This document shows positions 3,129 through 64,000 of a stretch of 64,000 nucleotides of DNA, piece after piece. Made by a program: the position numbers and the translations under genes. How positions within the stretch are numbered: the stretch's first letter is position 1; every line of letters starts with the position of its first letter. Below the pieces are notes generated by a model. That model was not told where the DNA came from and searched no databases. It saw only the letters and a list, made by a program, of their open reading frames with translations. The stretch lies in the sequence record PP418985.1; one strand, given 5' to 3'. This DNA is from Escherichia phage UPWr_E1.

Positions 3129-3854
3129 ATGTTTGATAAAGAATATTTCGAAGAACTCCGCGCTATTGCGGCGTCCGACGACAAAGAAGCACAGAAAACA
3201 GCTAAAACAGAATTAGCTGACTACGCAAAACAATTTGATATCAAGGTCAAAAAGACGTTATCACTAGAGAACATGATCGAGTTCGTAGAAACCGAATTAA
3301 CTAAACTGGCTTCCGAAATGGAAGAAGAAACTCCGGCAGAAGGAACCAGTATTAACGATCTTATTCTGGCAGCAGATACCGCAGATGATAAAGTGGTATT
3401 CGACGAAGTTGATCCGTCTCTGGTTGAAGCAATGAAAGAACCCGAGATCGTCATTGAAGAAACAAAAGAAGAATCTCCAGCAGTTGAACCAGTGGTCGAA
3501 GAAGTTAAGTCAGTTGTTGAAGAAGCGCCGGAAGTTAAAGTGGAATCTCCGGTAGCCAACATTTTCTCCGACGAAGCAGAGCATCGTTCCCCAGCACATG
3601 ACACTGATTCATTTTGTGATCTTACTGGTTTCCGTCCGACCATTTGCTTGATCGGTGGCGGTCGTGGTTACTACTCCTGCCCGTGGTGGATTTTCGACTG
3701 GATTGTTAATACTCCAGATTGGAAGAAGTACCCAGAGCGTTTCCCGCACGCGTATGTACACGACACCCTCAAGTCACTGATCTATTATATCAAACGCGAT
3801 GGGTCTGTCAAGGTGCGAGAGACTAAACACAGCCAATTCCACACTCTTAAATAA
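3129..3854 (+). CDS. hypothetical protein with acidic E/V-rich centre and Cys/Trp-rich C-terminal domain; occupies T4 inh/segD position
   Basis: AGGAG RBS; 241 aa; synteny between uvsW and hoc; no motif recognised. Confidence 0.6.
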   Translation: MFDKEYFEELRAIAASDDKEAQKTAKTELADYAKQFDIKVKKTLSLENMIEFVETELTKLASEMEEETPAEGTSINDLILAADTADDKVVFDEVDPSLVEAMKEPEIVIEETKEESPAVEPVVEEVKSVVEEAPEVKVESPVANIFSDEAEHRSPAHDTDSFCDLTGFRPTICLIGGGRGYYSCPWWIFDWIVNTPDWKKYPERFPHAYVHDTLKSLIYYIKRDGSVKVRETKHSQFHTLK

Positions 3855-3932: not shown

Positions 3933-6476
3933 ATGTCTAACAAAATCAATGTATTACATCAAACAGAAGGTCCGGTTTATGGTTCCGTTGGTCGTCCACT
4001 TCTGTTAAAGATTGTTGTCAGTACAGCAGATTTTAAAGATTTTATAGCAGAATGGAAGCTGAACGGTGTAAATGTGCCAGCAGAACAAATTTCCGACGCG
4101 GATCAGTCTCTGTATATTGAGGAAATGCGAGAAAATCAATTTGGTACATATACATGTCACATTAAACTGAAAGACGAACCACAGGTCGGTGTAGATATTA
4201 AGCCTATTCTTGTACAGCGTAGATTTTTTATTGCACCGCAAGATCAGTCTCCGACGTATATTAAAAAACGAATCGGCGAAGAATTAACCCTATTCGCAAC
4301 ACCAGCAATTGAACTAGGTCAACACCCAGAGTTTCAATGGTATCGAAATCATATTCCGGTAGAACCAGAAAAAATCGAGGACAACCGAACCGTTCATATT
4401 GCCCGTGTTGGTCTTATTGATTTTGGCAATTATACGTGTCGTGTTACTGTCCGTGGTGAACCAGCATCACAATATTGGATTAATCCAATTATTGTAGAAA
4501 AGAATGATACCCCTCCTGTAGTGCATCTTAGCGAAGAATATCCTAGCTCTATTACAGTAGCAGAGGATTCAGCGGTACATCTCAATGTACTTGTTACATC
4601 AGATGATAAAGTATCGCCTATTGAGTATACGTGGATTCATAACGGTAGGATTGTTATCGAAGAAAACGGAAACTCTTTGGCAATTCCGCATATTCGAAAA
4701 GATCAGGAAGGTATCTGGCGTCTTGAGGTAAAACAAGGTGACACTACGGTGTATTCTAAAGATTGTCATATTGAGGTTGATAGTCAACCATTCTTTAGGA
4801 TCACACGTCAACCGCAAACTCTTAACGTGTCTGGCGGTGCTTTGGGTTTATTCAGCGTTGATTATAGAACAAACTATTCACCTGTAAAGATCCAGTGGTA
4901 TCGTAAAAAGAATACAGAACAGGAGTTTACACCAATTGTAGGTGAGACTAATAAAGATCTTCATATTACACCAGCTACTACTGAATTAAACCGAGCACGC
5001 TACAAAGCTCGTATCACGTATGGCACAGACCAATACAGAGATTCAGAAGAAGCTGAATTGCTAGTAGGTGAAGCATTAACTATTAGAATCACCAAACAAC
5101 CACAAGCTCTACAAAACGTCCGAGTTTCTTCCTCACAGACGATCACTTGTGAAGCTGAAACAAACTATGAACATTATCGCTTAGATTATCAGTGGTATAA
5201 AGATAACGAATTAATGCCAGGCAAAACATCTAATGTATTGCACTTCTCATCAATCAAAAAGACAGATGAGGGGCAATATAAGTGTATTGCATCAATGGGT
5301 ATTTCTGGTCATCGAATTACCGCAGAATCATCACCAGCACAGGTGACAGTAGACAATTCAAAGGCATCACTGACTATCACTAAACAGCCAACTGGTGCAA
5401 CAATTCGCACTGGTGGGTCGTGGTCTATTTCGGTCGAAGCAACATCAAACGATGCACTACCGATTCGCTATCGCTGGTTTAAAGACGGCGAAGATCTATT
5501 CCCACAAGGCGTTGAACAAAAAAACGTTTACGGTGAAGACCATGCTCAACCTGATTCGACTGGTGTATATACTTGTCGCGTTTCGGTTGGTTTTGGTGAT
5601 CACCGAGCGTCTCAAATGTCACATCCAGCAAGGGTGCTAATTAGCGATAATGTGGAAATTGTGCCGAATGACTTACAGGTCACCGCACATCCTCATGATA
5701 ATGACGTTAAGTATAATCAGCGTGTTATCTTAACAGCAAGATCTCAAAATAGCATCGGGTTAAAACCACATATTCAATGGAAAAAGGATGGTGTTGCTAT
5801 TCCGGGTGCAAATTCAGAGACTTTAGTCATTGAGCACGCGAAACCATTGGATGCAGGGGTTTACACCGCAGATATTACCGCAGCAGAAAAAACGGTAACA
5901 ACCAATCCGGCTACAGTTACTGTAGCAGAGCACAGCAATATTAATATCTTAAAACATCCAGTGGATGTGGTTGCAAAAGAAGGACAAACCACCGACATTG
6001 TATTGGAAGCTCATGCGGAACATTCTGACGGTGAAACCGAAGTTAGTTATCAGTGGCATAAAATTAAAGATGGCGTAGACACTGAAATAAGAGATGCAAC
6101 AAATAAAACTTTAGTTATCCCTCATGCACAGATCAGCAAGCAAGCTCATCAAGCGACCTATTACGCCGAGATAAAAGAAGAGAATGGACACGTTAAACAT
6201 AGCGAAAAAGTTCGAGTGGTGTTTACTACCGCGAAATTAAAACGCTATGTTCACCCGATCCCGTGGCGACGTACATCCTTCCAGTATCAAGGCTATTGGG
6301 TTATGGATGAGATTGATCGCTGTAATCGTGAAGGGCTTAACTGGCTTGAGGACTTTACGCACACCAAATATCCAGAAGAGATCGAAACTATTGCTGCATC
6401 ATTGCATCATTATTCAAATACTCATGTATTAGAATCTCGTAATGGTTATCTGGTTGATGGTACTCAACTATTTTAA
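3933..6476 (+). CDS. hoc: Hoc-like capsid decoration protein with ~7-8 Ig-like repeats and a shared C-terminal domain
   Basis: AGAGGA RBS; repeated W-Y/F-[KR]...G-x-Y-x-C Ig-like motifs (GNYTCRVTV, GQYKCIAS, GVYTCRVSV); C-terminal RYVHPIPWRRTSF...ESRNGY; hoc position. Confidence 0.7.
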   Translation: MSNKINVLHQTEGPVYGSVGRPLLLKIVVSTADFKDFIAEWKLNGVNVPAEQISDADQSLYIEEMRENQFGTYTCHIKLKDEPQVGVDIKPILVQRRFFIAPQDQSPTYIKKRIGEELTLFATPAIELGQHPEFQWYRNHIPVEPEKIEDNRTVHIARVGLIDFGNYTCRVTVRGEPASQYWINPIIVEKNDTPPVVHLSEEYPSSITVAEDSAVHLNVLVTSDDKVSPIEYTWIHNGRIVIEENGNSLAIPHIRKDQEGIWRLEVKQGDTTVYSKDCHIEVDSQPFFRITRQPQTLNVSGGALGLFSVDYRTNYSPVKIQWYRKKNTEQEFTPIVGETNKDLHITPATTELNRARYKARITYGTDQYRDSEEAELLVGEALTIRITKQPQALQNVRVSSSQTITCEAETNYEHYRLDYQWYKDNELMPGKTSNVLHFSSIKKTDEGQYKCIASMGISGHRITAESSPAQVTVDNSKASLTITKQPTGATIRTGGSWSISVEATSNDALPIRYRWFKDGEDLFPQGVEQKNVYGEDHAQPDSTGVYTCRVSVGFGDHRASQMSHPARVLISDNVEIVPNDLQVTAHPHDNDVKYNQRVILTARSQNSIGLKPHIQWKKDGVAIPGANSETLVIEHAKPLDAGVYTADITAAEKTVTTNPATVTVAEHSNINILKHPVDVVAKEGQTTDIVLEAHAEHSDGETEVSYQWHKIKDGVDTEIRDATNKTLVIPHAQISKQAHQATYYAEIKEENGHVKHSEKVRVVFTTAKLKRYVHPIPWRRTSFQYQGYWVMDEIDRCNREGLNWLEDFTHTKYPEEIETIAASLHHYSNTHVLESRNGYLVDGTQLF

Positions 6477-6482
6477 TATTAT

Positions 6483-6502
6483 TGGTCGCCCTTCGGGGCG
6501 AC
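6483..6502 (+). other. stem-loop GGTCGCCC-TTCG-GGGCGACC between the two hoc-like genes (no T-run)
   Basis: perfect 8-bp stem with UUCG tetraloop; lies inside the ORF-track N-terminal extension of the next gene. Confidence 0.5.
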
Positions 6503-6520
6503 CTTAACGGAGTTATTTTT

Positions 6521-7753
6521 ATGGCATTTACAGTAGCACTAAAATCAAATAAAAAATGTTTCCTTGCTGGCGATACATTTAAATTAACGGCTACATTAGC
6601 TGGGGTGGAAGATGGTCCGGTCCCATCAAATGTTACCTATGCATGGACTAAAAATGATCAGCCAATTGAAAATGAATCAAATGTATTAACGGTCTCTAAC
6701 GCAACAGCCGAGAGCGCCGGAAAATATAAAGTATCCGTTACTGACACAGACACACAAGAAGTGGTAGAATCTGCGGTTGTGTCAATGGCAGAAGCAGAAT
6801 TAGTAGTTAAAATTAATCATCCATCTAGCTACGTCGCATTCGATGAGGCGGTAGAATTAACAACTACGGTTTCATATTCAACCGGATTTGCACCGTCTAG
6901 CAATTACCAGTTGCATTATAAATGGGAACAAGATCAAACAAATTTAAACCATAGCGAAAGCACATTATCGATCAGCAACTTCGTCGATGACAACAATGGC
7001 GTTTATAAGGTTACTGTATGGGGCGAGTCAGAAACATCAGCGGACAGCGCCAGTGTTAAACTTGCAGCAATCTCTATATCTGTAGTTGAAGATGTACCAC
7101 TGGCAAAAACCGTCGCAATGGGTAAACCGATCACACTACCTTATCGCACGATGGGTGTTTCTATCGGTGACACGTCAGGTCTTCCGGCATTATCAACTAA
7201 ACAGTCATGGTATTTGCAGCGAGAAGGACAACCGCGCCCGACACTGATCGGGAGTGAGGTTGGGGAGGCATTGGAAGGGTTTTCTATCATGCCTAACGGC
7301 TATTTGCACAAAGAAGCTGCAACAATGGACGACACCGCTAACTTTTGGTGTATCGTAGAGTTGCTTCAAGAAATTGACGGGCAGCCAGTACCAATCGAAG
7401 AAAAAGGTAGCTCTCATTGCGCACTGGAAGTTGTAGAATCACTTCATAAGATGTTCCGGTATGTGCACCCGATCCCGTGGCGCAAAACTTCGTTTATCTA
7501 TATTGGATGGTGGGTATTCGACGAGATCGTTAAATTCAATGAGGCAGGGTTAGAATGGAGAAACCGTGAAGTTTACGAGGATAGCAAATATGCAAGCGAC
7601 ATCGAGACGATCGCGGCAGCGGAAGAAAAATATAGTGATTGCACTTGCATGGAATCTCGCAATGGTTTCATGTATCAGTCCAAAGAGTTCCATAAACTGG
7701 ACCGAGAGACATTAGAGCGTGTCCTGCGCATTCGTGAAACGCCTCCTGCTTAA
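6521..7753 (+). CDS. Hoc-like paralog (shorter Ig-like array, same C-terminal domain)
   Basis: GGAG RBS then ATG 6521; Ig-like motifs (GKYKVSVTD, GVYKVTVWG); C-terminal FRYVHPIPWRKTSF...ESRNGF, paralogous to 3933..6476. Confidence 0.65.
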   Translation: MAFTVALKSNKKCFLAGDTFKLTATLAGVEDGPVPSNVTYAWTKNDQPIENESNVLTVSNATAESAGKYKVSVTDTDTQEVVESAVVSMAEAELVVKINHPSSYVAFDEAVELTTTVSYSTGFAPSSNYQLHYKWEQDQTNLNHSESTLSISNFVDDNNGVYKVTVWGESETSADSASVKLAAISISVVEDVPLAKTVAMGKPITLPYRTMGVSIGDTSGLPALSTKQSWYLQREGQPRPTLIGSEVGEALEGFSIMPNGYLHKEAATMDDTANFWCIVELLQEIDGQPVPIEEKGSSHCALEVVESLHKMFRYVHPIPWRKTSFIYIGWWVFDEIVKFNEAGLEWRNREVYEDSKYASDIETIAAAEEKYSDCTCMESRNGFMYQSKEFHKLDRETLERVLRIRETPPA

Positions 7754-11396: not shown

Positions 11397-12329
11397 TTAT
11401 GGAGAATTTGGGGTTAATTCAGGGAACAGCGTGCCAAAACCAAAATTACCGCTAGCGTCACGCTGGAATGTCATAACAAGGTCGACATAAACCGGATCTG
11501 TAAATCTATCAAATCTATCCGACCCAATATCAACCATGAACGCTAATTTAATCTCATTAGAATTTGAGATCGCAGCGTCAGCACATGCACCAAAAATTAC
11601 CTGAGTATCTTTTGCCGTATATGCATTGACCTGTATGTTGGTTGGTTTCATTACATCGTTAGACAAACCAGATAGTTCTACTCGTCCATTAAATGACGCC
11701 AGACTTTGACCACCGCCTAGATAATGAATATGACCACCTTGTGAAGATTGTGTCCAGTCCATTAGCATAACCTTAAATCTAGCCTCAAAACGCCCTTCCA
11801 CGTAATATCGACCAGTTTCAAAGTTTTGTCTAATTGGTGTCCATGTGATGTGTGGTTTTCCGCTTACAGGATCGACAAGAGTCACACCTACGGCTGGCTT
11901 AATACTGACACTATCAAATGAACGTGATAGCCAATTCCATGTTTGATTGTCTAGGTTTGGCAATTGTGGAATATTCAATCCATCTAATCGGCTGTGTGCT
12001 CGTGCTGCTTCCGATTCTGCGGTAGTCGCTTTAGTCAGTGCATCAGTTGCTTTGCTCATGGATTGCCCTGCCGTTCGATCGGCAACATCAGCAGTTGATT
12101 TTGCAATCTCTGCCGTTCGATGTGCTGAACTTGCTGTTTCTGTTATTACGTCATCGCACGCAATAACAAAATCAATTACAGGATCGATCAATTGAGTGTT
12201 GATTGAGTTGGAAATTCGTTCAACATCACTTTCCATTAGAGCATTAGATTCATTTCCTGTGAAATGAGTAATTTCACCTTGAACAAAATCATTTTGCAAC
12301 TTGCTGATCTTTGCTTTAATATCGGTCAT
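11397..12329 (-). CDS. fiber-like protein with Ala/Thr-rich helical N-terminal region and globular C-terminal domain
   Basis: GGGGTGA RBS; 310 aa; TAEIAKSTADVADRTAGQS...ATDALTKATTAESEAARAH resembles side-tail-fiber stalks; not in the T4 23-24 interval. Confidence 0.7.
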   Translation of the reverse strand: MTDIKAKISKLQNDFVQGEITHFTGNESNALMESDVERISNSINTQLIDPVIDFVIACDDVITETASSAHRTAEIAKSTADVADRTAGQSMSKATDALTKATTAESEAARAHSRLDGLNIPQLPNLDNQTWNWLSRSFDSVSIKPAVGVTLVDPVSGKPHITWTPIRQNFETGRYYVEGRFEARFKVMLMDWTQSSQGGHIHYLGGGQSLASFNGRVELSGLSNDVMKPTNIQVNAYTAKDTQVIFGACADAAISNSNEIKLAFMVDIGSDRFDRFTDPVYVDLVMTFQRDASGNFGFGTLFPELTPNSP

Positions 12330-12344
12330 GAATCACCCCGCTAA

Positions 12345-14063
12345 TTATTGTGCTTGCTCTGGAAGTGCTTGTATATTTTCTATAGTAGCACCCCATTTAA
12401 CGGCATTTAAACGAGCTTTGTGCATATCGTCTTCTCCGACTATTGCCGCAAAACCCTTTTTAGCGTGGAAATTCGCCCATGTGTTATATGCTAGTGCACC
12501 TACGCGTTTTGCTGTGTCGTGTTCAACTTCATCAACCATCAGCATTGTGCGGAAAGGTGCAAATGCTACATCTGGGTTATCGTCTTGTGTCCATGAACCA
12601 CCATTAAACGACACCTGCCACCTGAACATCTCACCAGACGGAATTTGATTAATTCTCAACTTTAGAGATCTTGTTTTCTGGTTTTTCTGAGTTACGTCTA
12701 GTGGAACCTGATATCTAGCCGCTTGTCGTTCTCTACCATCATTCATCCTATGCCATGCGGTAACAACAAGCATAACCGGAATTGTGTTTGATGTTTTAAT
12801 AAAACTAACATCAACTAAAAGTTCCATATCATAGCTACCAGATTTAGGCGCAACCCACCAATGGTCGGCATCAGCTTGTCGATCTGGCTCTTTAATCTGT
12901 GGTGTGCATCCATAGTTATCATGAATGACATACTTCCACGGAATGTAAAAAGCACCACCGCCAGTTCCTGGATTTGTAACTTCGAGTAGATTTTGTGCAG
13001 TGGTAAACACGCTTGACACGCGAGGGAAAGCATAAATGGTAGCACCACCAGTGTGATCGCTGATCTGTAACCATTCGGTCCATCGATCAGTTCTCTTTGT
13101 ATAGGAACGGTGATACATTACGCCATCAATGCTTGTTGCGATCTGCAATACATGATCTTTACATGCATGAACATCTACAGAACCATGTGTTTGTGTTCCA
13201 TTTGGACGGTTTGCCGACCCCTCAAAGTAACAGAAACGGCCTTGTTTAGTCAAGGTGTTTAGGTCTAGCGTTTCTGGCGAAATTTCCGGTAGACGTTTAC
13301 CCAGACTGGTTAACATCGCCTCCTGATCACCATTTAAACCACCGCCACCACTTCCTTCCCCGCTTTGAGAGTTCCACTCACGCCATGCACCATTGTGTCG
13401 GATGCGAGAGTAAACACCACCATCAATAGAACGGACCACTTGAAGAATGCTACCATCGACGACATATACATCTGCGGACCCCTTATTCGCCATCATTGGA
13501 GGTTTGCCATAGGTTGCATCACCTACCGGATAGCGTCCGGGTGATGTGGTTACATCCAGATTGTTAATTGGATTCGTCGTAGTCCATTTTACCTCAATTG
13601 CAGATAGACGCTGCGCAACGTTCGCTAATACTTCTGGTACTGGAAATACAAGAGATTCCTGTGTTCCGTCTGAGTACGTGACTTCTAGAGTCCAGTTGCG
13701 ATCGTCCTCGGACAAATTCGCTTCGATTCTAGCAATGCCACGACCATTTTCGCCCTTCTCACCAGGAATACCCTGTTCACCCTGAATAACCCAGGTCATA
13801 TCGACCCATTTTGATTTATCGTAGGGAGATTGTGCTGTTTTACCAGTCCATAATTGGAGTTTTTCGCCACAAACAATAATTGTTTTTAGTCTTTCCAATT
13901 CTGGAAAATGTTCGGTAAAATATTCATCCCTAGCTTCTTCATTTTCGAAACGGTGAGTATTTTTAATTCCGCTAGGTACGTTAGTTCCGATCTGAATACC
14001 ACCACCAGAACAACCACCACTCACGGAACCAGCATTAATGATAGCTTGTGGATTTAGCTTCAT
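12345..14063 (-). CDS. fiber-like protein with collagen-like Gly-X-Y run and two knob-like repeats
   Basis: GGGGGT RBS then ATG 14063; GEQGIPGEKGENGRG; two repeats of ...DG-x-x-Y-x-R...W-x-E-W (SIDGGVYSRIRHNGAWREW, SIDGVMYHRSYTKRTDRWTEW) typical of pyocin/tail-fiber knob domains. Confidence 0.75.
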   Translation of the reverse strand: MKLNPQAIINAGSVSGGCSGGGIQIGTNVPSGIKNTHRFENEEARDEYFTEHFPELERLKTIIVCGEKLQLWTGKTAQSPYDKSKWVDMTWVIQGEQGIPGEKGENGRGIARIEANLSEDDRNWTLEVTYSDGTQESLVFPVPEVLANVAQRLSAIEVKWTTTNPINNLDVTTSPGRYPVGDATYGKPPMMANKGSADVYVVDGSILQVVRSIDGGVYSRIRHNGAWREWNSQSGEGSGGGGLNGDQEAMLTSLGKRLPEISPETLDLNTLTKQGRFCYFEGSANRPNGTQTHGSVDVHACKDHVLQIATSIDGVMYHRSYTKRTDRWTEWLQISDHTGGATIYAFPRVSSVFTTAQNLLEVTNPGTGGGAFYIPWKYVIHDNYGCTPQIKEPDRQADADHWWVAPKSGSYDMELLVDVSFIKTSNTIPVMLVVTAWHRMNDGRERQAARYQVPLDVTQKNQKTRSLKLRINQIPSGEMFRWQVSFNGGSWTQDDNPDVAFAPFRTMLMVDEVEHDTAKRVGALAYNTWANFHAKKGFAAIVGEDDMHKARLNAVKWGATIENIQALPEQAQ

Positions 14064-14070
14064 ATAATAA

Positions 14071-14379
14071 TTACCCCCGTTTAGCAAGATACACGGTTAC
14101 AGTAGAATCATTGGAAACAGATTTTACTTTTGCCCTAATAAATGACCATAATGTTTCAAACGCTCCACCATCAGTTGCATATTCATTACCATCAGCTTTC
14201 AATTCTGAAATAGTGAACCAACCTTTGCCATCTAAGGAACCTTCTAACGAGGCTTCCGCAATGACTTTTTGCCCTTCCCGTGCACCCTCTACGGTCATCT
14301 GTACTGTCATGTGCGTACTATGAACGCAGTTTACCGACGCGGAAACGGCTGGAGTTTTGGTCTTTATAAGTGTGTGCAT
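14071..14379 (-). CDS. hypothetical protein (102 aa), first gene of the fiber-like module
   Basis: AAGGGGAG RBS; preceded by late promoter TATAAATA and the gp23 terminator. Confidence 0.6.
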   Translation of the reverse strand: MHTLIKTKTPAVSASVNCVHSTHMTVQMTVEGAREGQKVIAEASLEGSLDGKGWFTISELKADGNEYATDGGAFETLWSFIRAKVKSVSNDSTVTVYLAKRG

Positions 14380-14417: not shown

Positions 14418-14425
14418 TATTTATA
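14418..14425 (-). promoter_or_regulatory. T4-type late promoter TATAAATA (fiber-like module)
   Basis: tatttata on plus strand, 39 nt upstream of the ATG at 14379. Confidence 0.6.
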
Positions 14426-60086: not shown

Positions 60087-60372
60087 GACTATCATTAACC
60101 TTGTTATGTGGACTTTTAATTTCGTTATTGTTATTATGGCGGGTATTGAGATTGTCAAGCAATATCTGTTACAATCCAGAAATAAACATGTTGTAATTGA
60201 TATGGACTCTCAAGGAAATAAGCTGATCCGGTTAGAATATGGTCGGGAATATTGGGTAGGTTATCCAAAGACACTACGCGGATTTATCTTTGCTATGGGT
60301 GTTTGCTTCTTTTTCCTTTGTATCTGGGTTTATGTTGGTTTATGTCTTGCTGGATTTTTGGAGATTAATTAA
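60079..60372 (+). CDS. membrane protein (97 aa)
   Basis: two hydrophobic segments; stop overlaps tk start. Confidence 0.5.
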   Translation: MLETIINLVMWTFNFVIVIMAGIEIVKQYLLQSRNKHVVIDMDSQGNKLIRLEYGREYWVGYPKTLRGFIFAMGVCFFFLCIWVYVGLCLAGFLEIN

Positions 60373-60968
60373 TGGCGCAACTATATTTCTACTATGCATC
60401 TATGAACGCTGGCAAATCAACTTCCCTGTTACAAAGTGCTTATAACTATACCGAACGTGATATGCGAGTATTAATTCTTAAGCCAGCGATTGATAATCGA
60501 GATTCAGAAAGTGAAGTTGTTTCCCGAATTGGTCTAAGTGCTCCAGCGATCACCTTCACTAAATCGGATGATCTTTTCGACTTGGTTTATCGTGAATCAC
60601 TAGGTAAGCGTAGACCGGATCGCTGGCGTCCAGATGCTGTATTTGTAGATGAAGCCCAATTTATGACTAAAGAGCATGTTTTAGGCTTGTGTGCGCTTGT
60701 TGATGATGCAAATATCCCTGTACTGTGCTATGGCCTTCGCACTGACTTTCAGGGCAATCTATTTGAAGGATCTGCGGCATTGATGGCATTTGCTGATAAA
60801 CTGGTCGAAATGAAGGGTATTTGTCATTGCGGTAAGAAAGCAACAATGGTCCTTCGTGTAGATAAAGAGGGTAATGTTATTCGCGATGGTGCTCAAATAG
60901 AAGTTGGTGCAGAGGATAAATATGTTTCTGTGTGCCGTAAACATTTTATTGACGGCACTACCAACTAA
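60372..60968 (+). CDS. tk: thymidine kinase
   Basis: P-loop MNAGKSTSLL; VFVDEAQF; C-terminal CHCG...C zinc site; matches recalled T4 Tk. Confidence 0.9.
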   Translation: MAQLYFYYASMNAGKSTSLLQSAYNYTERDMRVLILKPAIDNRDSESEVVSRIGLSAPAITFTKSDDLFDLVYRESLGKRRPDRWRPDAVFVDEAQFMTKEHVLGLCALVDDANIPVLCYGLRTDFQGNLFEGSAALMAFADKLVEMKGICHCGKKATMVLRVDKEGNVIRDGAQIEVGAEDKYVSVCRKHFIDGTTN

Positions 60969-60995
60969 GAGTTAATCATAAATAAAGCCCCAGAT

Positions 60996-61003
60996 TATAA
61001 ATA
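60996..61003 (+). promoter_or_regulatory. T4-type late promoter TATAAATA (rI-like gene)
   Basis: exact TATAAATA 34 nt upstream of the ATG at 61037. Confidence 0.5.
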
Positions 61004-61036
61004 TAACTGAATATTTTCAATCTGGGGGAATGACTT

Positions 61037-61339
61037 ATGTCATTTATTCGTAAAACTCTAACAGCGGCAATATGCTTGACTGCGGTCGGAAGTGTCAGTG
61101 CTGATCAATATGATCCAACTGGTGACTTTACTGATTATTTCGACGGTGCAATGATAGTATATGTAAACAAAATATCTCCTTCCATTGAAACCAGCCAGAA
61201 ATTTCATGCCCATATTATGAAGATGTATGCTCGTAGTAAATGTATGGATTCTAAGCAGTGTTTTATTATGGGGGAATATGCCGCACAACAATTTGTTATG
61301 TTGCATAATGTGGAGAATCGAGAACATGAAATTCAGTGA
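61037..61339 (+). CDS. rI: RI-like lysis inhibition regulator (periplasmic)
   Basis: signal-anchor then DP...F...YV.K.S......F...M..Y....C.....C pattern as in recalled T4 RI; adjacent to tk as in T4. Confidence 0.5.
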   Translation: MSFIRKTLTAAICLTAVGSVSADQYDPTGDFTDYFDGAMIVYVNKISPSIETSQKFHAHIMKMYARSKCMDSKQCFIMGEYAAQQFVMLHNVENREHEIQ

Positions 61340-61724
61340 TTTTCGAAAGACGTCCGAAGAGGGAAAAGCTAATAAAGTTGACCGCTTTATCGGTGAATGT
61401 CTGATGAGTGTTACTTATATGCATTCTGCGCATTTTGGGGTAACTGGTCCTGGATCTTATGCAAAACATAAGGCTCTAGAAGAGTTCTATCTTGAAATGC
61501 AAGAATTGGTTGATAATTTCACTGAAACCAATATTGGGATCACTGGTCGTTATCAGCCAACGTTGGTCGTCCGCAAGGAGATTAGCGAAATTGCCTATTT
61601 GCAAGAGTTAACGCAAATGGCTAGTGAGATTTATAATGATGTTGATAGCTCGTTACAGAGCGTTTTAGACGATATAAAAGTTCTATGCTTTAAAACAATT
61701 TATAAACTCACTCGACTGGCTTAA
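61326..61724 (+). CDS. hypothetical protein (132 aa)
   Basis: GAGAA then ATG 61326; 14-nt overlap with rI-like ORF. Confidence 0.5.
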   Translation: MKFSDFRKTSEEGKANKVDRFIGECLMSVTYMHSAHFGVTGPGSYAKHKALEEFYLEMQELVDNFTETNIGITGRYQPTLVVRKEISEIAYLQELTQMASEIYNDVDSSLQSVLDDIKVLCFKTIYKLTRLA

Positions 61725-61745: not shown

Positions 61746-63893
61746 ATGCCAGCAGAAATTAAAAACACTACAATTAACTCACAAATTTGGCTTCCTCATA
61801 CTTTTGAATGTTCTATTGTTGCTGAGTCGGAAGACCCAGAGAAAAGACGAAAAGGTTATTTGTGGAAAAAGAATGATAAGTTGATCACCATGACAGATGG
61901 TCCATCTTTTCCACTAAAATCTGTTAAAGAGGAAGATAAAACAGGTTGGTCTGTTAATGTTCGTGGTTTTGCTCAAGATGATGAAAATCTTTCTGGCGAA
62001 TCCGTAGATATCGGCACGGAAAACTTCACCTTTGAACTTTTTGATAATCCATATGTGGAACATGTATACCCGCCGACGTCTTTTAATATTGGTGATGAAA
62101 TCAAGGCAAAAATTGTTTTCCGTAGTCATATCCAGCCTAATATTTCGGTTGACCTTTATTATAATGATGGTTTGGTTGATTCCGTTGATGGTGATCTGGG
62201 GTTAGACCATCGTGAATTTAAAATTGCAAAATTCGCGTGGCCTGAATTTTCCGGTACATATAAAATGGAATTGAGTGATGAACATGGTGAGGTTAAATTT
62301 GTATATCCTTTCTATGCAAACATCACTGAAAATAAGGAAGTATTCAACGTACAAAAATATGCACCTGCCTATTTTACCGTAGATGACGATGCACCGAATC
62401 AGGCGGAATATACTATTGTCCGATATCGACTAGAGCGTAATGATGGTAGTTTGGTTTATGAGTCTAAAGATAAGACTTTGTATGTAACTAAACATGCTCA
62501 AGAGTCTGACGCCGGAGAATATGTTGCTTTTGTTCGTGCATATAAGGTTGTTAATGGTCCTGGTGCTGGGACCGAATATGTGGATGGTGAAAAACATCGA
62601 TTCACAGTTAACGTAAAAGAAAACGAATTTTTTAGCCGTGATTTTAGTGCTATTGATTTTCGTTATCCTTCTGGATCTACTGTAAACCTTGATATGCCAG
62701 TGATGCAAGCCGATAGCTCATGGAATCGTCATTATGGTATGCTTACTAACAACGTTTACTTTACGTGGATGCTTGGCGGTAAGAAACTACAAAGTAAAAA
62801 ATATGGCGATGAGGGTTATGACCGGATAACGCTATCTGGATTGCAATATGATAACAGCGTTGCGCTTCAATTGTTGGTTGCTCCTGCCAATCCAGCGGGT
62901 GAACAGGTGATTCCTAACGGTCGCCCATTATTTTATGATCGTCGTATGCTTGAGATTTATGATAAAGAGTATGATTATCGTAATATTGAAGTGGGTGAAC
63001 CTATTGTTCTCAAGATCGTAGATCCTGAACCGCCAGCTAGTGATGATCCTGAACAAACGCGAACTTTGGTTATCACCAAAAACGACGTTAAAGTAACGGA
63101 ACTTCCGCTAGGTACTAAGGAATATAAGATCACCGACTCTGCGGACAGAGACCATAACGGCATCTGGGCGCATGAATATCGTGATAGTCCGAGTAAAGAT
63201 CCATTTAGCGCACATACTGATTTTGATATTGCTGGTCGTTCGACCTATCATGTTGAAGTAGTGCCGAATATGGAGTTTGACGGTCCTCATCCGGTACAGG
63301 TTACGGAAGGTGATACCCTGACGCTAGAAGCAACCATGCTAAAACCGCCAGCCTCATATGTTCCGACTTATGAGTTTAGTAAAAACGGTGTTAAACTGGA
63401 CATGGAGGACTCACGAAGTCCGATTTACCGTAAAGCAAACGTTACGCTAGAGGATGCTGGTGTTTATCGATTTGTTGCATTTGCTGATAAAAACAGCAAC
63501 GATGAACTAGATCCTGGCGAGATTGTCGGGTATACAAAATATGTTCAGGTTGTAGTTAATAAACGTCCTGTGCGACCGGATGAACCTAGACCGGAAGTTA
63601 AAATTGTTACTATGTTTAACGAGTTTAGCAAAGGCCGATTTAGTCCGTGTCCGTATTGGGTGATTGATGAGCTTGTCGAATTGATGGAAGACCCGCATGG
63701 TTGGATGGATAAACTTGAAGATTCTGTCTACTATGACTGGCAAATCACTATCTTTAATGAGTTCCTAAAAGGTAAGGATTTGTATCTTCAAGATTCGTGT
63801 AATGGTTATTGGGCGATTGTCCGCCAGAAGGATATGTCTATTGAAACTGGCTATGGGCGATTCAAACACTACTATACAAATGGACGTGAATAA
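61746..63893 (+). CDS. large Hoc-like protein: Ig/beta-sandwich repeats plus Hoc-type C-terminal domain
   Basis: GGGGGG RBS; GEYVAFVRAYKV and GVYRFVAFAD Ig-like motifs; C-terminal PYWVIDELVEL...DSCNGYWAIV resembles the C-termini of 3933..6476 and 6521..7753. Confidence 0.6.
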   Translation: MPAEIKNTTINSQIWLPHTFECSIVAESEDPEKRRKGYLWKKNDKLITMTDGPSFPLKSVKEEDKTGWSVNVRGFAQDDENLSGESVDIGTENFTFELFDNPYVEHVYPPTSFNIGDEIKAKIVFRSHIQPNISVDLYYNDGLVDSVDGDLGLDHREFKIAKFAWPEFSGTYKMELSDEHGEVKFVYPFYANITENKEVFNVQKYAPAYFTVDDDAPNQAEYTIVRYRLERNDGSLVYESKDKTLYVTKHAQESDAGEYVAFVRAYKVVNGPGAGTEYVDGEKHRFTVNVKENEFFSRDFSAIDFRYPSGSTVNLDMPVMQADSSWNRHYGMLTNNVYFTWMLGGKKLQSKKYGDEGYDRITLSGLQYDNSVALQLLVAPANPAGEQVIPNGRPLFYDRRMLEIYDKEYDYRNIEVGEPIVLKIVDPEPPASDDPEQTRTLVITKNDVKVTELPLGTKEYKITDSADRDHNGIWAHEYRDSPSKDPFSAHTDFDIAGRSTYHVEVVPNMEFDGPHPVQVTEGDTLTLEATMLKPPASYVPTYEFSKNGVKLDMEDSRSPIYRKANVTLEDAGVYRFVAFADKNSNDELDPGEIVGYTKYVQVVVNKRPVRPDEPRPEVKIVTMFNEFSKGRFSPCPYWVIDELVELMEDPHGWMDKLEDSVYYDWQITIFNEFLKGKDLYLQDSCNGYWAIVRQKDMSIETGYGRFKHYYTNGRE

Positions 63894-63906
63894 AATATAA
63901 TCAAAA

Positions 63907-63930
63907 GCCATCCGAAAGGGTGGCTTTTTT
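63907..63930 (+). terminator. rho-independent terminator
   Basis: GCCATCC-gaaa-GGGTGGC followed by TTTTTTCG. Confidence 0.75.
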
Positions 63931-63942
63931 CGTTTTTAGGTG

Positions 63943-63971
63943 TTGACAACCGGAATAGGGTATAGCATAAT
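63943..63971 (+). promoter_or_regulatory. PeSL-like early promoter module 7 (gene start lies beyond window end)
   Basis: TTGACA-17-CATAAT, then leader CACACATCGACAACAAAGGAGAATCAAA. Confidence 0.6.
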
Positions 63972-64000
63972 GCACACATCGACAACAAAGGAGAATCAAA

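What the first reader, a model, noticed from the sequence alone, without database searches (positions are those of the whole stretch)
61746..63893. Third, distant Hoc-like protein far from the hoc locus
A 715-aa protein next to tk/rI combines beta-sandwich/Ig-like repeats with a C-terminus (PYWVIDELVEL...DSCNGYWAIV) that resembles the shared C-terminal domain of the two hoc-locus proteins. It is bounded downstream by a PeSL-like module, which suggests acquisition by module shuffling. Three potential capsid display proteins in one phage would be unusual.
Basis: inference. Interest (0 to 1): 0.55.

Follow-up and report, generated by a model that had tools for sequence, protein, structure and literature searches.

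The report
Third, divergent Hoc-like capsid decoration gene
This RB49-like phage carries, next to its lysis-inhibition genes, an unannotated 715-residue protein made of six antibody-like domains plus a divergent copy of the module that anchors the Hoc decoration protein to the phage head; it is probably a third head-surface fibre, a gene that the reference phage RB49 and most of its relatives have deleted.

Summary
The ORF is real (61746-63893, +, 715 aa). Its last ~95 residues are homologous to the Hoc capsid-binding domain (CBD). The family CBD profile against an independent 48-sequence Hoc CBD profile gives hhalign probability 96.9%, E 2e-10; shuffled controls fail. T4 Hoc 305-362 is the only PDB sequence hit. 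Residues 1-606 form six Ig-like beta-sandwiches. The protein is acidic (pI 4.84) and under purifying selection (dN/dS 0.11; CBD 0.03-0.05).

The CBD is divergent. It keeps the helix-1 Trp/Asp and the S-x-N-G-Y loop, but lacks the conserved YVHPxPxR contact motif and Arg357.

The gene follows rI and rI.-1 behind a conserved late promoter and ends at a terminator/PeSL.

It is not a recent acquisition. The same slot is occupied in relatives only 59% identical. RB49 and Phi1 carry non-nested deletion scars. Only 5 of 58 Krischvirus genomes keep it, and these five alone also keep the 847-aa Hoc paralog and a 3-kb late block between genes 23 and 24. Alleles are old (dS about 1.3-1.5 versus 0.09-0.26 in the adjacent genes) and change exactly at the ORF borders.

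Verdict: a divergent third Hoc-family member. Capsid binding is inferred, not shown.

The parts
60996..61003 (+). T4-type late promoter box TATAAATA, 34 nt upstream of the rI start codon. It lies in the loop of a hairpin (CCCCAGATT 60986-60994 / AATCTGGGG 61017-61025) whose 3' arm overlaps the rI Shine-Dalgarno sequence.
   Evidence: It is one of only two perfect + strand boxes in the 64-kb window. The eight - strand boxes all sit 22-39 nt upstream of late-gene starts. The box is conserved upstream of rI in divergent relatives L004 and L006. Sequence shown.
61037..61339 (+). rI (lysis inhibition / antiholin), first gene of the inferred late unit.
   Evidence: phrog_1246 E 2.5e-26. Annotated rI in RB49 and Phi1.
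61326..61724 (+). rI.-1 (DUF5856; labelled 'starvation-inducible transcriptional regulator' by PHROGs). It overlaps the end of rI and stops 21 nt before the 715-aa gene.
   Evidence: phrog_858 E 7.6e-43. The 399-nt annotated gene in RB49 and Phi1. PF19174 in L004 and L006.
61746..63893 (+). The 715-aa gene: a divergent Hoc-family protein (six Ig-like domains, a Pro-rich linker and a capsid-binding-like domain), preceded by the Shine-Dalgarno sequence GGGGGG.
   Evidence: ORF. 16 intact orthologues, 58-97% identical. dN/dS 0.11. pI 4.84. Labelled 'hypothetical protein' in all five GenBank records that hold it.
61746..63563 (+). Residues 1-606: six Ig-like beta-sandwich domains. D1 = 1-100, D2 = 101-195, D3 = 196-292, D4 = 293-392, D5 = 393-506, D6 = 507-606. 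The distal D1 is the most variable.
   Evidence: AF2 model with pLDDT mostly 70-94. Foldseek PDB top hits are six-Ig ectodomains. Pfam Ig_3 on D6 is below threshold. Mean pairwise identity is 0.62 for D1, rising to 0.77-0.78 for D5 and D6.
63564..63602 (+). Pro-rich linker (KRPVRPDEPRPEV), residues 607-619.
   Evidence: pLDDT below 50 in both models. Alignment.
63603..63872 (+). Residues 620-709: domain homologous to the Hoc capsid-binding domain (CBD), with the order beta-beta-alpha-alpha-alpha-beta-beta plus an extra, invariant C-terminal strand (SIETGYGRFKHY).
   Evidence: Homology. AF2 core pLDDT 80-90. [quoted passage not shown] This is the most conserved part of the protein: identity 0.86, 63% invariant columns, dN/dS 0.03-0.05.
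61829..61837 (+). GGAAGACCC, left copy of a 9-bp direct repeat. The right copy is at 63686-63694. Phage Phi1 is deleted exactly between the two copies.
63686..63694 (+). GGAAGACCC, right copy of the direct repeat used in the Phi1 deletion.
63903..63928 (+). Intrinsic terminator stem-loop (AAAAGCCATCC-GAAA-GGGTGGCTTTT followed by a T run), the stem-loop part of the downstream PeSL.
   Evidence: Conserved at 97-100% in RB49, Phi1, G2248 and JK32. Annotated as a terminator in G2248. Analogous terminators follow the gene in L004 and L006.
63943..63971 (+). Sigma-70-type early promoter (TTGACA, 17 nt, CATAAT) of the PeSL. It is followed by the Shine-Dalgarno sequence AAGGAG (63988-63993) of the next gene, the ORF084 homologue, whose start codon lies just past the window end.
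   Evidence: 11 of 12 consensus positions match. Fits the PeSL description in PMC2839356. The RB49 and Phi1 sequences continue into ORF084.
3933..6476 (+). 847-aa long Hoc paralog at the hoc locus (canonical CBD, RYVHPIPWR...ESRNGY). It co-occurs with the 715-aa gene in the same five phage genomes.
   Evidence: phrog_1149 E 1.8e-50. Pfam Ig_3, I-set and related families. tblastn gives full-length matches only in SSG23, SFHK24, Brandy, JK32 and G2248. A remnant survives in Phi1 as ORF168.1, and also in RB49.
6521..7753 (+). Canonical Hoc (410 aa), orthologue of RB49 Hoc.
   Evidence: PDB 3shs E 5e-99 and T4 Hoc E 1.6e-17. phrog_1149 E 1.7e-63.

Best explanation
The gene encodes a third, divergent member of the Hoc family of non-essential head decoration proteins.

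Proposed mechanism:
1. The gene is transcribed late, together with rI and rI.-1, from the TATAAATA promoter at 60996. Transcription ends at the terminator at 63903-63928.
2. The 82-kDa acidic protein folds into a roughly linear string of six Ig-like domains.
3. After head expansion, the C-terminal domain (residues about 620-709) docks at the centre of a gp23* hexamer, as the T4 and RB49 Hoc capsid-binding domains do. The Ig string then projects outward as a fibre longer than canonical Hoc.
4. There is one docking site per hexamer, so the protein would share or compete for the roughly 155 sites with the canonical 410-aa Hoc and the 847-aa paralog. The result would be a mosaic surface coat.
5. 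Its role would be adhesion to environmental or host-surface ligands, or virion dispersal.

The gene is dispensable, and most sequenced Krischviruses have lost it by deletion between short direct repeats.

Shown here: homology of the C-terminal domain to the Hoc CBD, the Ig-like string, purifying selection, conserved operon context, ancestral presence and repeated loss.

Inferred, not shown: late expression, capsid binding, the binding site and competition between the three proteins.
For: CBD homology:
- phrog_1149 E 1.3e-9 for the whole protein and 1.3e-6 for the last 109 aa, aligned to profile positions 1076-1145 of 1150.
- phmmer against PDB: T4 Hoc 273-361, E 0.019.
- Family CBD profile against PDB: T4 Hoc is the sole hit, E 3e-4.
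- hhalign 95.2% / 2.7e-8 and 96.9% / 2e-10, with clean shuffled controls.
- The Hoc CBD HMM finds this ORF in the six-frame translation of the window at E 6.5e-9.

Conserved residues against the T4 Hoc-gp23* interface described in PMC10385173: W310 = W638, D313 = D641, Q354 = Q682, S356 = S684, N358 = N686 (N358 hydrogen-bonds gp23 R344), G359 = G687, Y360 = Y688.

Docking site: the gp23 docking loop (T4 G326-R344) is conserved in this phage's gp23, including D336, P337 and R344.

Architecture: six Ig-like domains plus a C-terminal CBD. This is exactly the architecture that defines Hoc-like proteins. The top Foldseek PDB hit for the CBD model is the T4 Hoc CTD bound to the capsomer.

Other Hoc-like properties:
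- pI 4.84, within the 4.2-5.2 range of Hocs.
- A conservation gradient like Hoc's: CBD 86% identity against 62% for the distal D1; dN/dS 0.03-0.05 against about 0.2.
- A late promoter upstream, no intervening terminator, and intergenic gaps of 12-23 nt, all conserved in divergent relatives.
- Dispensability, as for hoc: deleted in 53 of 58 genomes.
Against: - No direct evidence that the protein is in virions. No proteomics exist for any phage that carries it.
- The CBD is divergent. The highly conserved YVHP(L/I)PxR segment, containing the gp23 contacts Y293, H295 and R300, is replaced by IVTMFNEFSKGR. R357 of the ESRNG loop is Cys here and Lys in the distant member P0016. W309 is Tyr.
- The structural match to the T4 Hoc CTD is weak (Foldseek E 0.077, TM below 0.5). 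The model also used an alignment that included Hoc CBDs, so the test is partly circular.
- The gene sits in an otherwise early/middle region, 54 kb from hoc.
- The late promoter is upstream of rI, not directly upstream of the gene.
- Canonical BLASTP similarity to the two paralogs is only marginal.
Confidence: 0.65

Rival explanations
1. It is Hoc-derived, but the divergent C-terminal domain no longer docks at the standard hexamer-centre site. Having lost the YVHPxPxR / Arg357 features, it binds a different partner. Candidates are a subset of capsomers (for example those that deviate from six-fold symmetry) or the fibre-like late proteins encoded between genes 23 and 24. Those proteins are present only in the genomes that keep this gene.
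For: - The contact motif is missing, and an extra invariant C-terminal strand (SIETGYGRFKHY) is present.
- Among 58 genomes there is perfect co-occurrence of this gene, the 847-aa paralog and the gp23-gp24 block, although core genes do not separate those five phages from the rest.
- RB49 and Phi1 share one deletion of the gp23-gp24 block but lost this gene independently. That is the order expected if the gene became useless after the block was lost.
Against: - The residues that contact the capsomer centre (N358 equivalent, the S-x-N-G-Y loop, W310) are invariant in the family.
- PYW / PWW variants of the helix-1 motif occur in ordinary Hoc CBDs.
- Co-occurrence rests on only about three independent allelic lineages. 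It could reflect shared ancestry, or a general relaxation of selection on surface decoration.
- Nothing is known about the 102-, 580- and 310-aa proteins.
Confidence: 0.17
2. It is a non-virion protein whose function is tied to lysis inhibition or superinfection, because it is co-transcribed with rI and rI.-1. The Ig-like domains would bind a cell-envelope component rather than decorate the head.
For: Tight and conserved linkage rI - rI.-1 - gene, with 12-23 nt gaps, in three divergent lineages.
Against: - By inspection the N-terminus (MPAEIKNTTINSQIWLPHTFE) has no signal peptide or membrane segment, and the protein is acidic and soluble-looking. No signal-peptide predictor was run.
- The C-terminal domain is homologous to a capsid-docking module.
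- rI and rI.-1 remain intact and 97-98% conserved in the 53 genomes that deleted this gene, so they do not need it.
Confidence: 0.05
3. The resemblance of the C-terminus to the Hoc CBD is convergent or due to chance. The protein would be a generic Ig-repeat surface or tail protein unrelated to Hoc.
For: - Pairwise BLASTP E-values are only 0.005-0.013.
- The Foldseek match is not significant.
- There are weak hits to phrog_3995, 'tail protein', through the Ig domain.
Against: - Four independent profile tests agree, are collinear over about 62 columns, and cover the family's signature positions (C-x-W-V-x-D-E, G-W, Y-Y, T-[IL], Q-[DE]-S-x-N-G-Y). Shuffled controls fail.
- T4 Hoc is the only PDB sequence hit and also the top fold hit out of 350,542 chains.
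Confidence: 0.05

Closest known systems
Hoc (highly immunogenic outer capsid protein) of T4 and RB49; CBD structure PDB 8t1x/8t9r, RB49 Hoc Ig domains PDB 3shs
   Same: - A string of Ig-like domains followed by a C-terminal domain homologous to the capsid-binding domain.
- Acidic pI.
- Conserved CBD with variable distal Ig domains.
- Dispensable.
- The gp23 docking loop is conserved in this phage.
   Different: - Six Ig-like domains instead of three (715 against 376-410 aa).
- The CBD lacks the YVHPxPxR motif (Y293, H295, R300) and Arg357. It has Tyr for W309 and adds an invariant C-terminal strand.
- It is encoded 54 kb from the hoc locus, behind rI and rI.-1.
- The family is tiny: 15 clusters at 90% identity, and two full-length representatives among 1.84 billion.
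Phages with two Hoc-like proteins (Serratia phage Muldoon: 1174 and 314 aa; Enterobacter phage PG7: 233 aa, plus a 511-aa protein with an N-terminal CBD and a GDSL lipase domain), described in Fokine et al. 2023, PMC10385173
   Same: More than one protein in a single phage carries the Hoc CBD, which serves as a docking module to display different payloads on the head.
   Different: - Here there are three such proteins: two canonical ones in tandem at the hoc locus and one divergent one elsewhere.
- The third has a CBD subtype that BLAST searches seeded with the T4 CBD would probably miss.
PeSL (promoter-early stem-loop) cassettes of RB49 and Phi1 (Arbiol et al. 2010, PMC2839356)
   Same: - A terminator stem-loop plus a strong sigma-70 promoter lies immediately downstream of the gene. 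It is 97-100% conserved between genomes and coincides with the right-hand border of the divergent allele.
   Different: - There is no PeSL on the upstream side.
- The gene is not an ORFan cassette flanked by two PeSLs.
- Its losses in RB49 and Phi1 are internal deletions between 8-9-bp microhomologies, not PeSL-PeSL excisions.
T5 pb10 and other Ig-bearing decoration proteins bound at hexamer centres
   Same: A modular design of capsid-binding domain plus exposed Ig-like domain.
   Different: The capsid-binding domains are unrelated. The only similarity found was through the Ig domain (PDB 5lxk, E 0.65).

Membership tests
Hoc family (Hoc-like head decoration proteins) | A terminal domain homologous in sequence to the T4 Hoc capsid-binding domain (residues 281-376). 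| tested here: met
   - phrog_1149 with the CTD alone: E 1.3e-6.
- Family profile against PDB: only T4 Hoc 305-362, E 3e-4.
- hhalign 95.2% / 2.7e-8 and 96.9% / 2e-10.
- Shuffled controls are negative.
Hoc family (Hoc-like head decoration proteins) | CBD fold: a four-stranded beta-sheet carrying a three-helix bundle. | tested here: inconclusive
   - The AF2 CTD model reads beta-beta-alpha-alpha-alpha-beta-beta(-beta), with core pLDDT 80-90.
- The top Foldseek PDB hit is 8t1x_X, the T4 Hoc CTD, but only at E 0.077, TM 0.39/0.46.
- The alignment used for the model contained Hoc CBDs, so the test is partly circular.
Hoc family (Hoc-like head decoration proteins) | A string of Ig-like domains attached to the CBD. 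| tested here: met
   - Six beta-sandwich domains in the AF2 model.
- Foldseek matches to six-Ig ectodomains at E 1e-20.
- Ig_3 on D6, E 1.4e-4, below the Pfam threshold.
Hoc family (Hoc-like head decoration proteins) | Conserved capsomer-centre contacts: helix-1 Trp (W310), D313 and the loop E355-S-R-N-G359-Y360. | tested here: met
   W638, D641 and Q682-D-S-C-N-G-Y688 are invariant in the family. S, N, G and Y are kept, and E is replaced by D. The exception is R357, covered in the next row.
Hoc family (Hoc-like head decoration proteins) | The highly conserved residues Y293, H295 and R300 (YVHPxPxR segment) and the R357-D313 salt bridge. | tested here: not met
   - The segment reads IVTMFNEFSKGR.
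- R357 is C685, or Lys in P0016.
- W309 is Y637.
- All 48 canonical CBDs that I aligned carry the conserved Arg at this loop position (R[NH]G), and nearly all carry the H-P motif.
Hoc family (Hoc-like head decoration proteins) | Binds one copy per expanded gp23* hexamer, on the outside of the head. | not testable with these tools
   Only indirect evidence: the gp23 docking loop G326-R344 is conserved in this phage (GSKAGVFDLQDPIDTRGAR).
Hoc family (Hoc-like head decoration proteins) | Late expression. | tested here: inconclusive
   A perfect TATAAATA box lies 34 nt upstream of rI. There is no terminator before 63903. The arrangement is conserved in L004 and L006. No expression data are available.
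Hoc family (Hoc-like head decoration proteins) | Encoded at the hoc locus next to inh (typical, not strictly defining). | tested here: not met
   The gene lies 54 kb away, downstream of tk, rI and rI.-1.
Hoc family (Hoc-like head decoration proteins) | Acidic protein (pI about 4-5) that is non-essential. | tested here: met
   pI 4.84, against 4.23-5.16 for known Hocs. The gene is deleted in 53 of 58 viable Krischvirus isolates.
PeSL-flanked mobile ORFan cassette (Arbiol et al. 2010) | A stem-loop terminator plus a sigma-70 early promoter on both sides of the gene. | tested here: not met
   The downstream PeSL is present. Upstream there is only a 21-nt Shine-Dalgarno-containing gap after rI.-1.

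The most novel reading that the evidence does not exclude
The three accessory loci that only five of 58 Krischviruses retain form one interdependent head-surface system. The loci are this divergent Hoc-like gene, the 847-aa Hoc paralog, and the late 102/580/310-aa fibre-like block between genes 23 and 24. The divergent CBD has lost the YVHPxPxR / Arg357 contacts and gained an invariant extra strand. It would dock to a site or partner that exists only when the other components are present. That would explain why the gene decayed independently at least twice after the gp23-gp24 block was lost. RB49, the structural reference for this genus, would then be a stripped-down derivative of a much more elaborately decorated ancestor.
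Probability: 0.15. Interest if true: 0.65.

Novelty: new variant of a known kind. Interest (0 to 1): 0.42.

Why it matters
Hoc is the main platform for T4 surface display, and it is the protein invoked for phage adherence to mucus. Its capsid-binding domain is treated as a single, well-defined module.

This gene shows three things:
- A divergent CBD subtype exists that lacks part of the canonical contact motif. It is labelled 'hypothetical protein' in every record that holds it, and Pfam and NCBIfam have no model covering it.
- One phage can encode three CBD-bearing fibres of very different lengths (410, 715 and 847 aa), which must share about 155 sites. This gives a natural system for studying competition and mosaic decoration.
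- The reference genomes RB49 and Phi1 are deletion derivatives at three separate surface-related loci. This matters for anyone using them as the model of the genus.

The divergent CBD could also provide a second docking tag, with different affinity or site preference, for phage display.

Tried and rejected
Searches that added little or nothing:
- The search for homologous proteins with the canonical Hoc CTD alone returned only 2 hits because of the word index. I replaced it with a 4-sequence CBD alignment, which gave 55 hits.
- IMG/VR scans found no relative of the 715-aa family, either with the single protein or with the family alignment. The three-locus co-occurrence could therefore not be tested on independent genomes. 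One 150-kb IMG/VR contig carries the other two loci but is cut off before the tk/rI region.
- The list of 650 Hoc homologues from Fokine et al. is not among the held supplements. I could not check whether this family was already included.
- NCBIfam gives nothing, and Pfam gives only a sub-threshold Ig_3. Pfam appears to have no model for the Hoc CBD at all, since even the canonical paralogs show only Ig families.
- The papers on JK32 and SSG23 contain no virion proteomics and no mention of this gene.

Ideas considered and dropped:
- A C635-C685 disulfide replacing the R357-D313 salt bridge. Dropped because the distant member P0016 has Lys at the 685 position, and I could not measure distances in the model.
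- Fast positive selection as the cause of the sharp divergence. Rejected because dN/dS is 0.11 and dS is 1.3-1.5.
- Pseudogene or spurious ORF. Rejected on the same data and on the 16 intact orthologues.
- PeSL-mediated excision as the mechanism of loss in RB49 and Phi1. Rejected because the junctions lie inside the ORF at 8-9-bp microhomologies.

Caveat on one alignment: MAFFT's placement of the beta-1 region in A4 (RPVRPDEP opposite YVHPLP, with a 14-residue insertion) conflicts with the HMMER placement (IVT opposite YVH). I treat that segment as not reliably aligned.
Full report
**1. What is there**

The window is a Krischvirus (RB49-like Straboviridae) segment. Its closest records are Brandy (98%) and SSG23/SFHK24 (97%). 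An ATG-initiated ORF of 715 aa runs from 61746 to 63893 on the + strand. It follows tk (60372-60968), rI (61037-61339) and rI.-1 (61326-61724).

The canonical Hoc matches the RB49 Hoc crystal structure 3shs at E 5e-99.

**2. The C-terminal domain is homologous to the Hoc capsid-binding domain**

Pairwise BLASTP to the two paralogs is only marginal (E 0.005-0.013), although it is collinear. Profile methods are clear:
- The whole protein hits phrog_1149, 'Hoc-like head decoration', at 1.3e-9. The last 109 residues alone hit positions 1076-1145 of that 1150-position profile at 1.3e-6.
- phmmer against all PDB sequences aligns residues 598-689 with T4 Hoc 273-361.
- A profile of the family's C-terminal domain (A2, 12 sequences) has T4 Hoc 305-362 as its only PDB hit (E 3e-4).
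- hhalign of A2 against a 4-sequence Hoc CBD alignment gives 95.2% / E 2.7e-8. Against an independent 48-sequence CBD alignment, built from the hits, it gives 96.9% / E 2e-10 over 62 columns.
- Twenty column-shuffled versions of A2 score 7-15, with one outlier at 30.7 over 15 columns. The real alignment scores 58.

**3. How canonical is the domain?**

I compared it with the T4 Hoc-gp23* interface described by Fokine et al. 2023 (PMC10385173).
- Kept: W310 (W638), D313 (D641), Q354, S356, N358, G359 and Y360 (Q682, S684, N686, G687, Y688). N358 is the residue that hydrogen-bonds gp23 R344 at the capsomer centre.
- Not kept: the conserved beta-1/loop segment YVHP(L/I)PxR, which contains Y293, H295 and R300. 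Here it reads IVTMFNEFSKGR.
- Changed: R357 becomes Cys (Lys in the distant member P0016), and W309 becomes Tyr.
- Added: after NGY the family has an almost invariant WAIVRQKDMSIETGYGRFKHY tail, predicted as an extra strand.

The AF2 model of the domain (merged alignment; core pLDDT 80-90) has the order beta-beta-alpha-alpha-alpha-beta-beta-beta. [quoted passage not shown] The match is weak, however (E 0.077, TM 0.39/0.46). I count the fold test as inconclusive.

The docking loop of gp23 (T4 G326-R344) is conserved in this phage's gp23, including D336, P337 and R344.

**4. The rest of the protein**

AF2 on the 16-sequence family alignment (mean pLDDT 75.9) gives six beta-sandwich domains over residues 1-606 and a Pro-rich linker. 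Foldseek's best PDB matches are six-Ig ectodomains such as contactin, sidekick and neurofascin (E 1e-20 to 1e-17).

In BFVD the best matches include the 78%-identical orthologue at rank 1, an 846-aa protein at rank 3 that is probably the long paralog of the same phage, and a 1010-aa annotated Hoc at rank 8.

The protein is acidic (pI 4.84), like known Hocs at 4.2-5.2. Conservation rises from the distal D1 (62% mean pairwise identity) to the CBD (86%, with 63% invariant columns).

**5. Family size**

The family has only 15 clusters at 90% identity, all about 715 aa and at least 58% identical. An exhaustive profile search of 1.84 billion representatives adds one more distant full-length member (P0016) and one chimeric fragment (P0017). 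Everything else is generic Ig-repeat similarity. All five GenBank records that contain the gene call it 'hypothetical protein'.

**6. Expression context**

A perfect late-promoter box, TATAAATA, lies at 60996-61003, 34 nt before the rI start codon. It is one of only two such boxes on the + strand in 64 kb. The eight on the - strand all lie 22-39 nt upstream of late-gene starts.

No terminator-like site with a strong stem intervenes before the terminator at 63903-63928. The gaps between rI.-1 and the gene are 21 nt here, 23 nt in L004 and 12 nt in L006. The late box upstream of rI, and a terminator plus sigma-70 promoter after the gene, are conserved in those divergent relatives.

Late co-transcription of rI, rI.-1 and this gene is therefore a reasonable inference, but it is not shown. 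The downstream element fits the published PeSL description. There is no PeSL upstream.

**7. Evolution: ancestral, repeatedly deleted, and exchanged as alleles**

Distribution. Only 5 of 58 Krischvirus records have the full gene: Brandy, SSG23, SFHK24, G2248 and JK32. The others retain remnants.

Deletion junctions:
- Phi1 is deleted between two copies of GGAAGACCC (window 61829 and 63686).
- RB49 has two other deletions. One runs from about 61892 to 63614 at an ACnATG microhomology. The other runs from 63640 to 63862 at GGnCGATT. RB49 has also lost the start codon.
- Each phage keeps sequence that the other lacks, so the events are independent.
- P0017 is a third kind of disruption.

Age of the slot. 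The gene occupies the same slot in relatives whose tk and rI.-1 have dS above 2 relative to the window.

Selection and allele age:
- Within the genus, dN/dS is 0.11, falling to 0.03-0.05 in the CBD.
- dS is 1.27 (window versus G2248) and 1.47 (window versus JK32). The adjacent tk and rI.-1 have dS of only 0.09-0.26.
- Identity drops from 97-100% to about 75% at roughly 61720 and recovers at roughly 63880.
- So old alleles sit between homogenised flanks. This is allele exchange, with rI.-1 as the left anchor and the PeSL as the right anchor. It is not de novo acquisition.

**8. Co-occurrence with two other loci**

The same five genomes, and only they, also carry the 847-aa Hoc paralog. They alone also carry a roughly 3-kb late-promoter-driven block between genes 23 and 24, encoding 102-, 580- and 310-aa ORFs. 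In tk-rI-rI.-1 and in the portal gene these five are not set apart from the other 53. All are about 97-98% identical to the window except JK32, at about 89-90%.

Phi1 and RB49 carry deletion scars at both extra loci. Phi1 ORF168.1 is the first 34 residues of the 847-aa protein. ORF161.1 is the C-terminus of the 310-aa protein.

RB49 and Phi1 share the gp23-gp24 junctions, whereas the junctions in the 715-aa gene are independent. This order of events is compatible with functional dependence. It is equally compatible with a general relaxation of selection on surface decoration. Only about three independent allelic lineages underlie the pattern.

**9. Comparison with what is known**

The architecture is exactly that used to define Hoc-like proteins: a conserved CBD plus a variable string of Ig-like domains. 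Phages with two such proteins are documented (Muldoon, PG7). I found no report of three, and none of this subfamily.

I file it as a divergent variant of the Hoc family. Capsid binding is inferred with moderate confidence. The alternative that its CBD has changed site or partner remains open.

Noticed in passing
window 3129-3854 (+), residues about 180-235: The Inh homologue (prohead protease inhibitor, phrog_1051 E 6.6e-77) has a C-terminal stretch, GYYSCPWWIFDWIV..PDWKKYPERF.., that matches my 48-sequence Hoc CBD HMM at E 5.6e-5 in a 589-ORF search. It also matches the same region of phrog_11091 and phrog_1149 weakly (E 0.096 and 0.62). It lacks the ESRNG loop. This may be a fourth, degenerate CBD-like module next to hoc.
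   Followed up: partly
window 11397-14379 (-), with TATAAATA at 14418-14425 (-): A late-promoter-driven block of three ORFs (102, 580 and 310 aa) lies between the gp23 and gp24 homologues. The 580-aa protein has a short collagen-like run (GEQGIPGEKGENGRG). The 310-aa protein has an alanine-zipper coiled coil (Pfam E 9.4e-5). No other annotation or PDB relative was found. The block is present only in the five genomes that keep the 715-aa gene. Phi1 and RB49 carry deletion scars: ORF161.1 is the C-terminus of the 310-aa protein.
   Followed up: partly
window 60986-61025 (+): The rI late promoter sits in the loop of a hairpin (CCCCAGATT ... AATCTGGGG). The 3' arm of the hairpin overlaps the rI Shine-Dalgarno sequence, and the arrangement is conserved in relative L004. 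It resembles the T4 device in which read-through early transcripts have a sequestered ribosome-binding site while late transcripts that start inside the hairpin are translatable.
   Followed up: partly
window 3933-6476 (+); L011 1737-1901 (Phi1 ORF168.1); RB49p168.2: The 847-aa Hoc paralog is only 69% identical (aa) to SSG23 and 51-58% to Brandy, JK32 and G2248, although the flanks are above 90% nt identical. Phi1 and RB49 annotate small ORFs that are its N-terminal remnant. Their internal deletion junctions differ (4038 to 6351 in Phi1, 3968 to 6365 in RB49).
   Followed up: partly
window about 6484-6505 (+): A GC-rich hairpin, GGTCGCCC-TTCG-GGGCGACC, lies between the stop codon of the 847-aa paralog and the start of canonical hoc. 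No perfect TATAAATA box on the + strand precedes inh, the paralog or hoc, so how the hoc locus is transcribed late is not evident from consensus scans.
   Followed up: no
P0017 (118 aa, metagenomic): A chimeric ORF joins an unrelated 56-residue N-terminus to the last 62 residues of this family's CBD. This is a third type of disruption or replacement of the gene in nature.
   Followed up: no
P0085-P0100 (for example Yersinia phage JC221 'large outer capsid protein'): Several Hoc-like proteins recovered with the CBD profile carry the CBD at the N-terminus, followed by a different beta-rich domain. Their helix-1 motif is LPYW or LPWW, close to the PYW of the 715-aa family.
   Followed up: no
L004 8246-9214 against window 63894 onward: Downstream of the gene's terminator/PeSL, the divergent relative L004 has a different gene set (DNA methylase, Dmd-like and others) from the ORF084-ORF080 series of RB49-type phages. 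The PeSL thus marks the border of a variable region, while the rI - rI.-1 - gene unit stays together.
   Followed up: no
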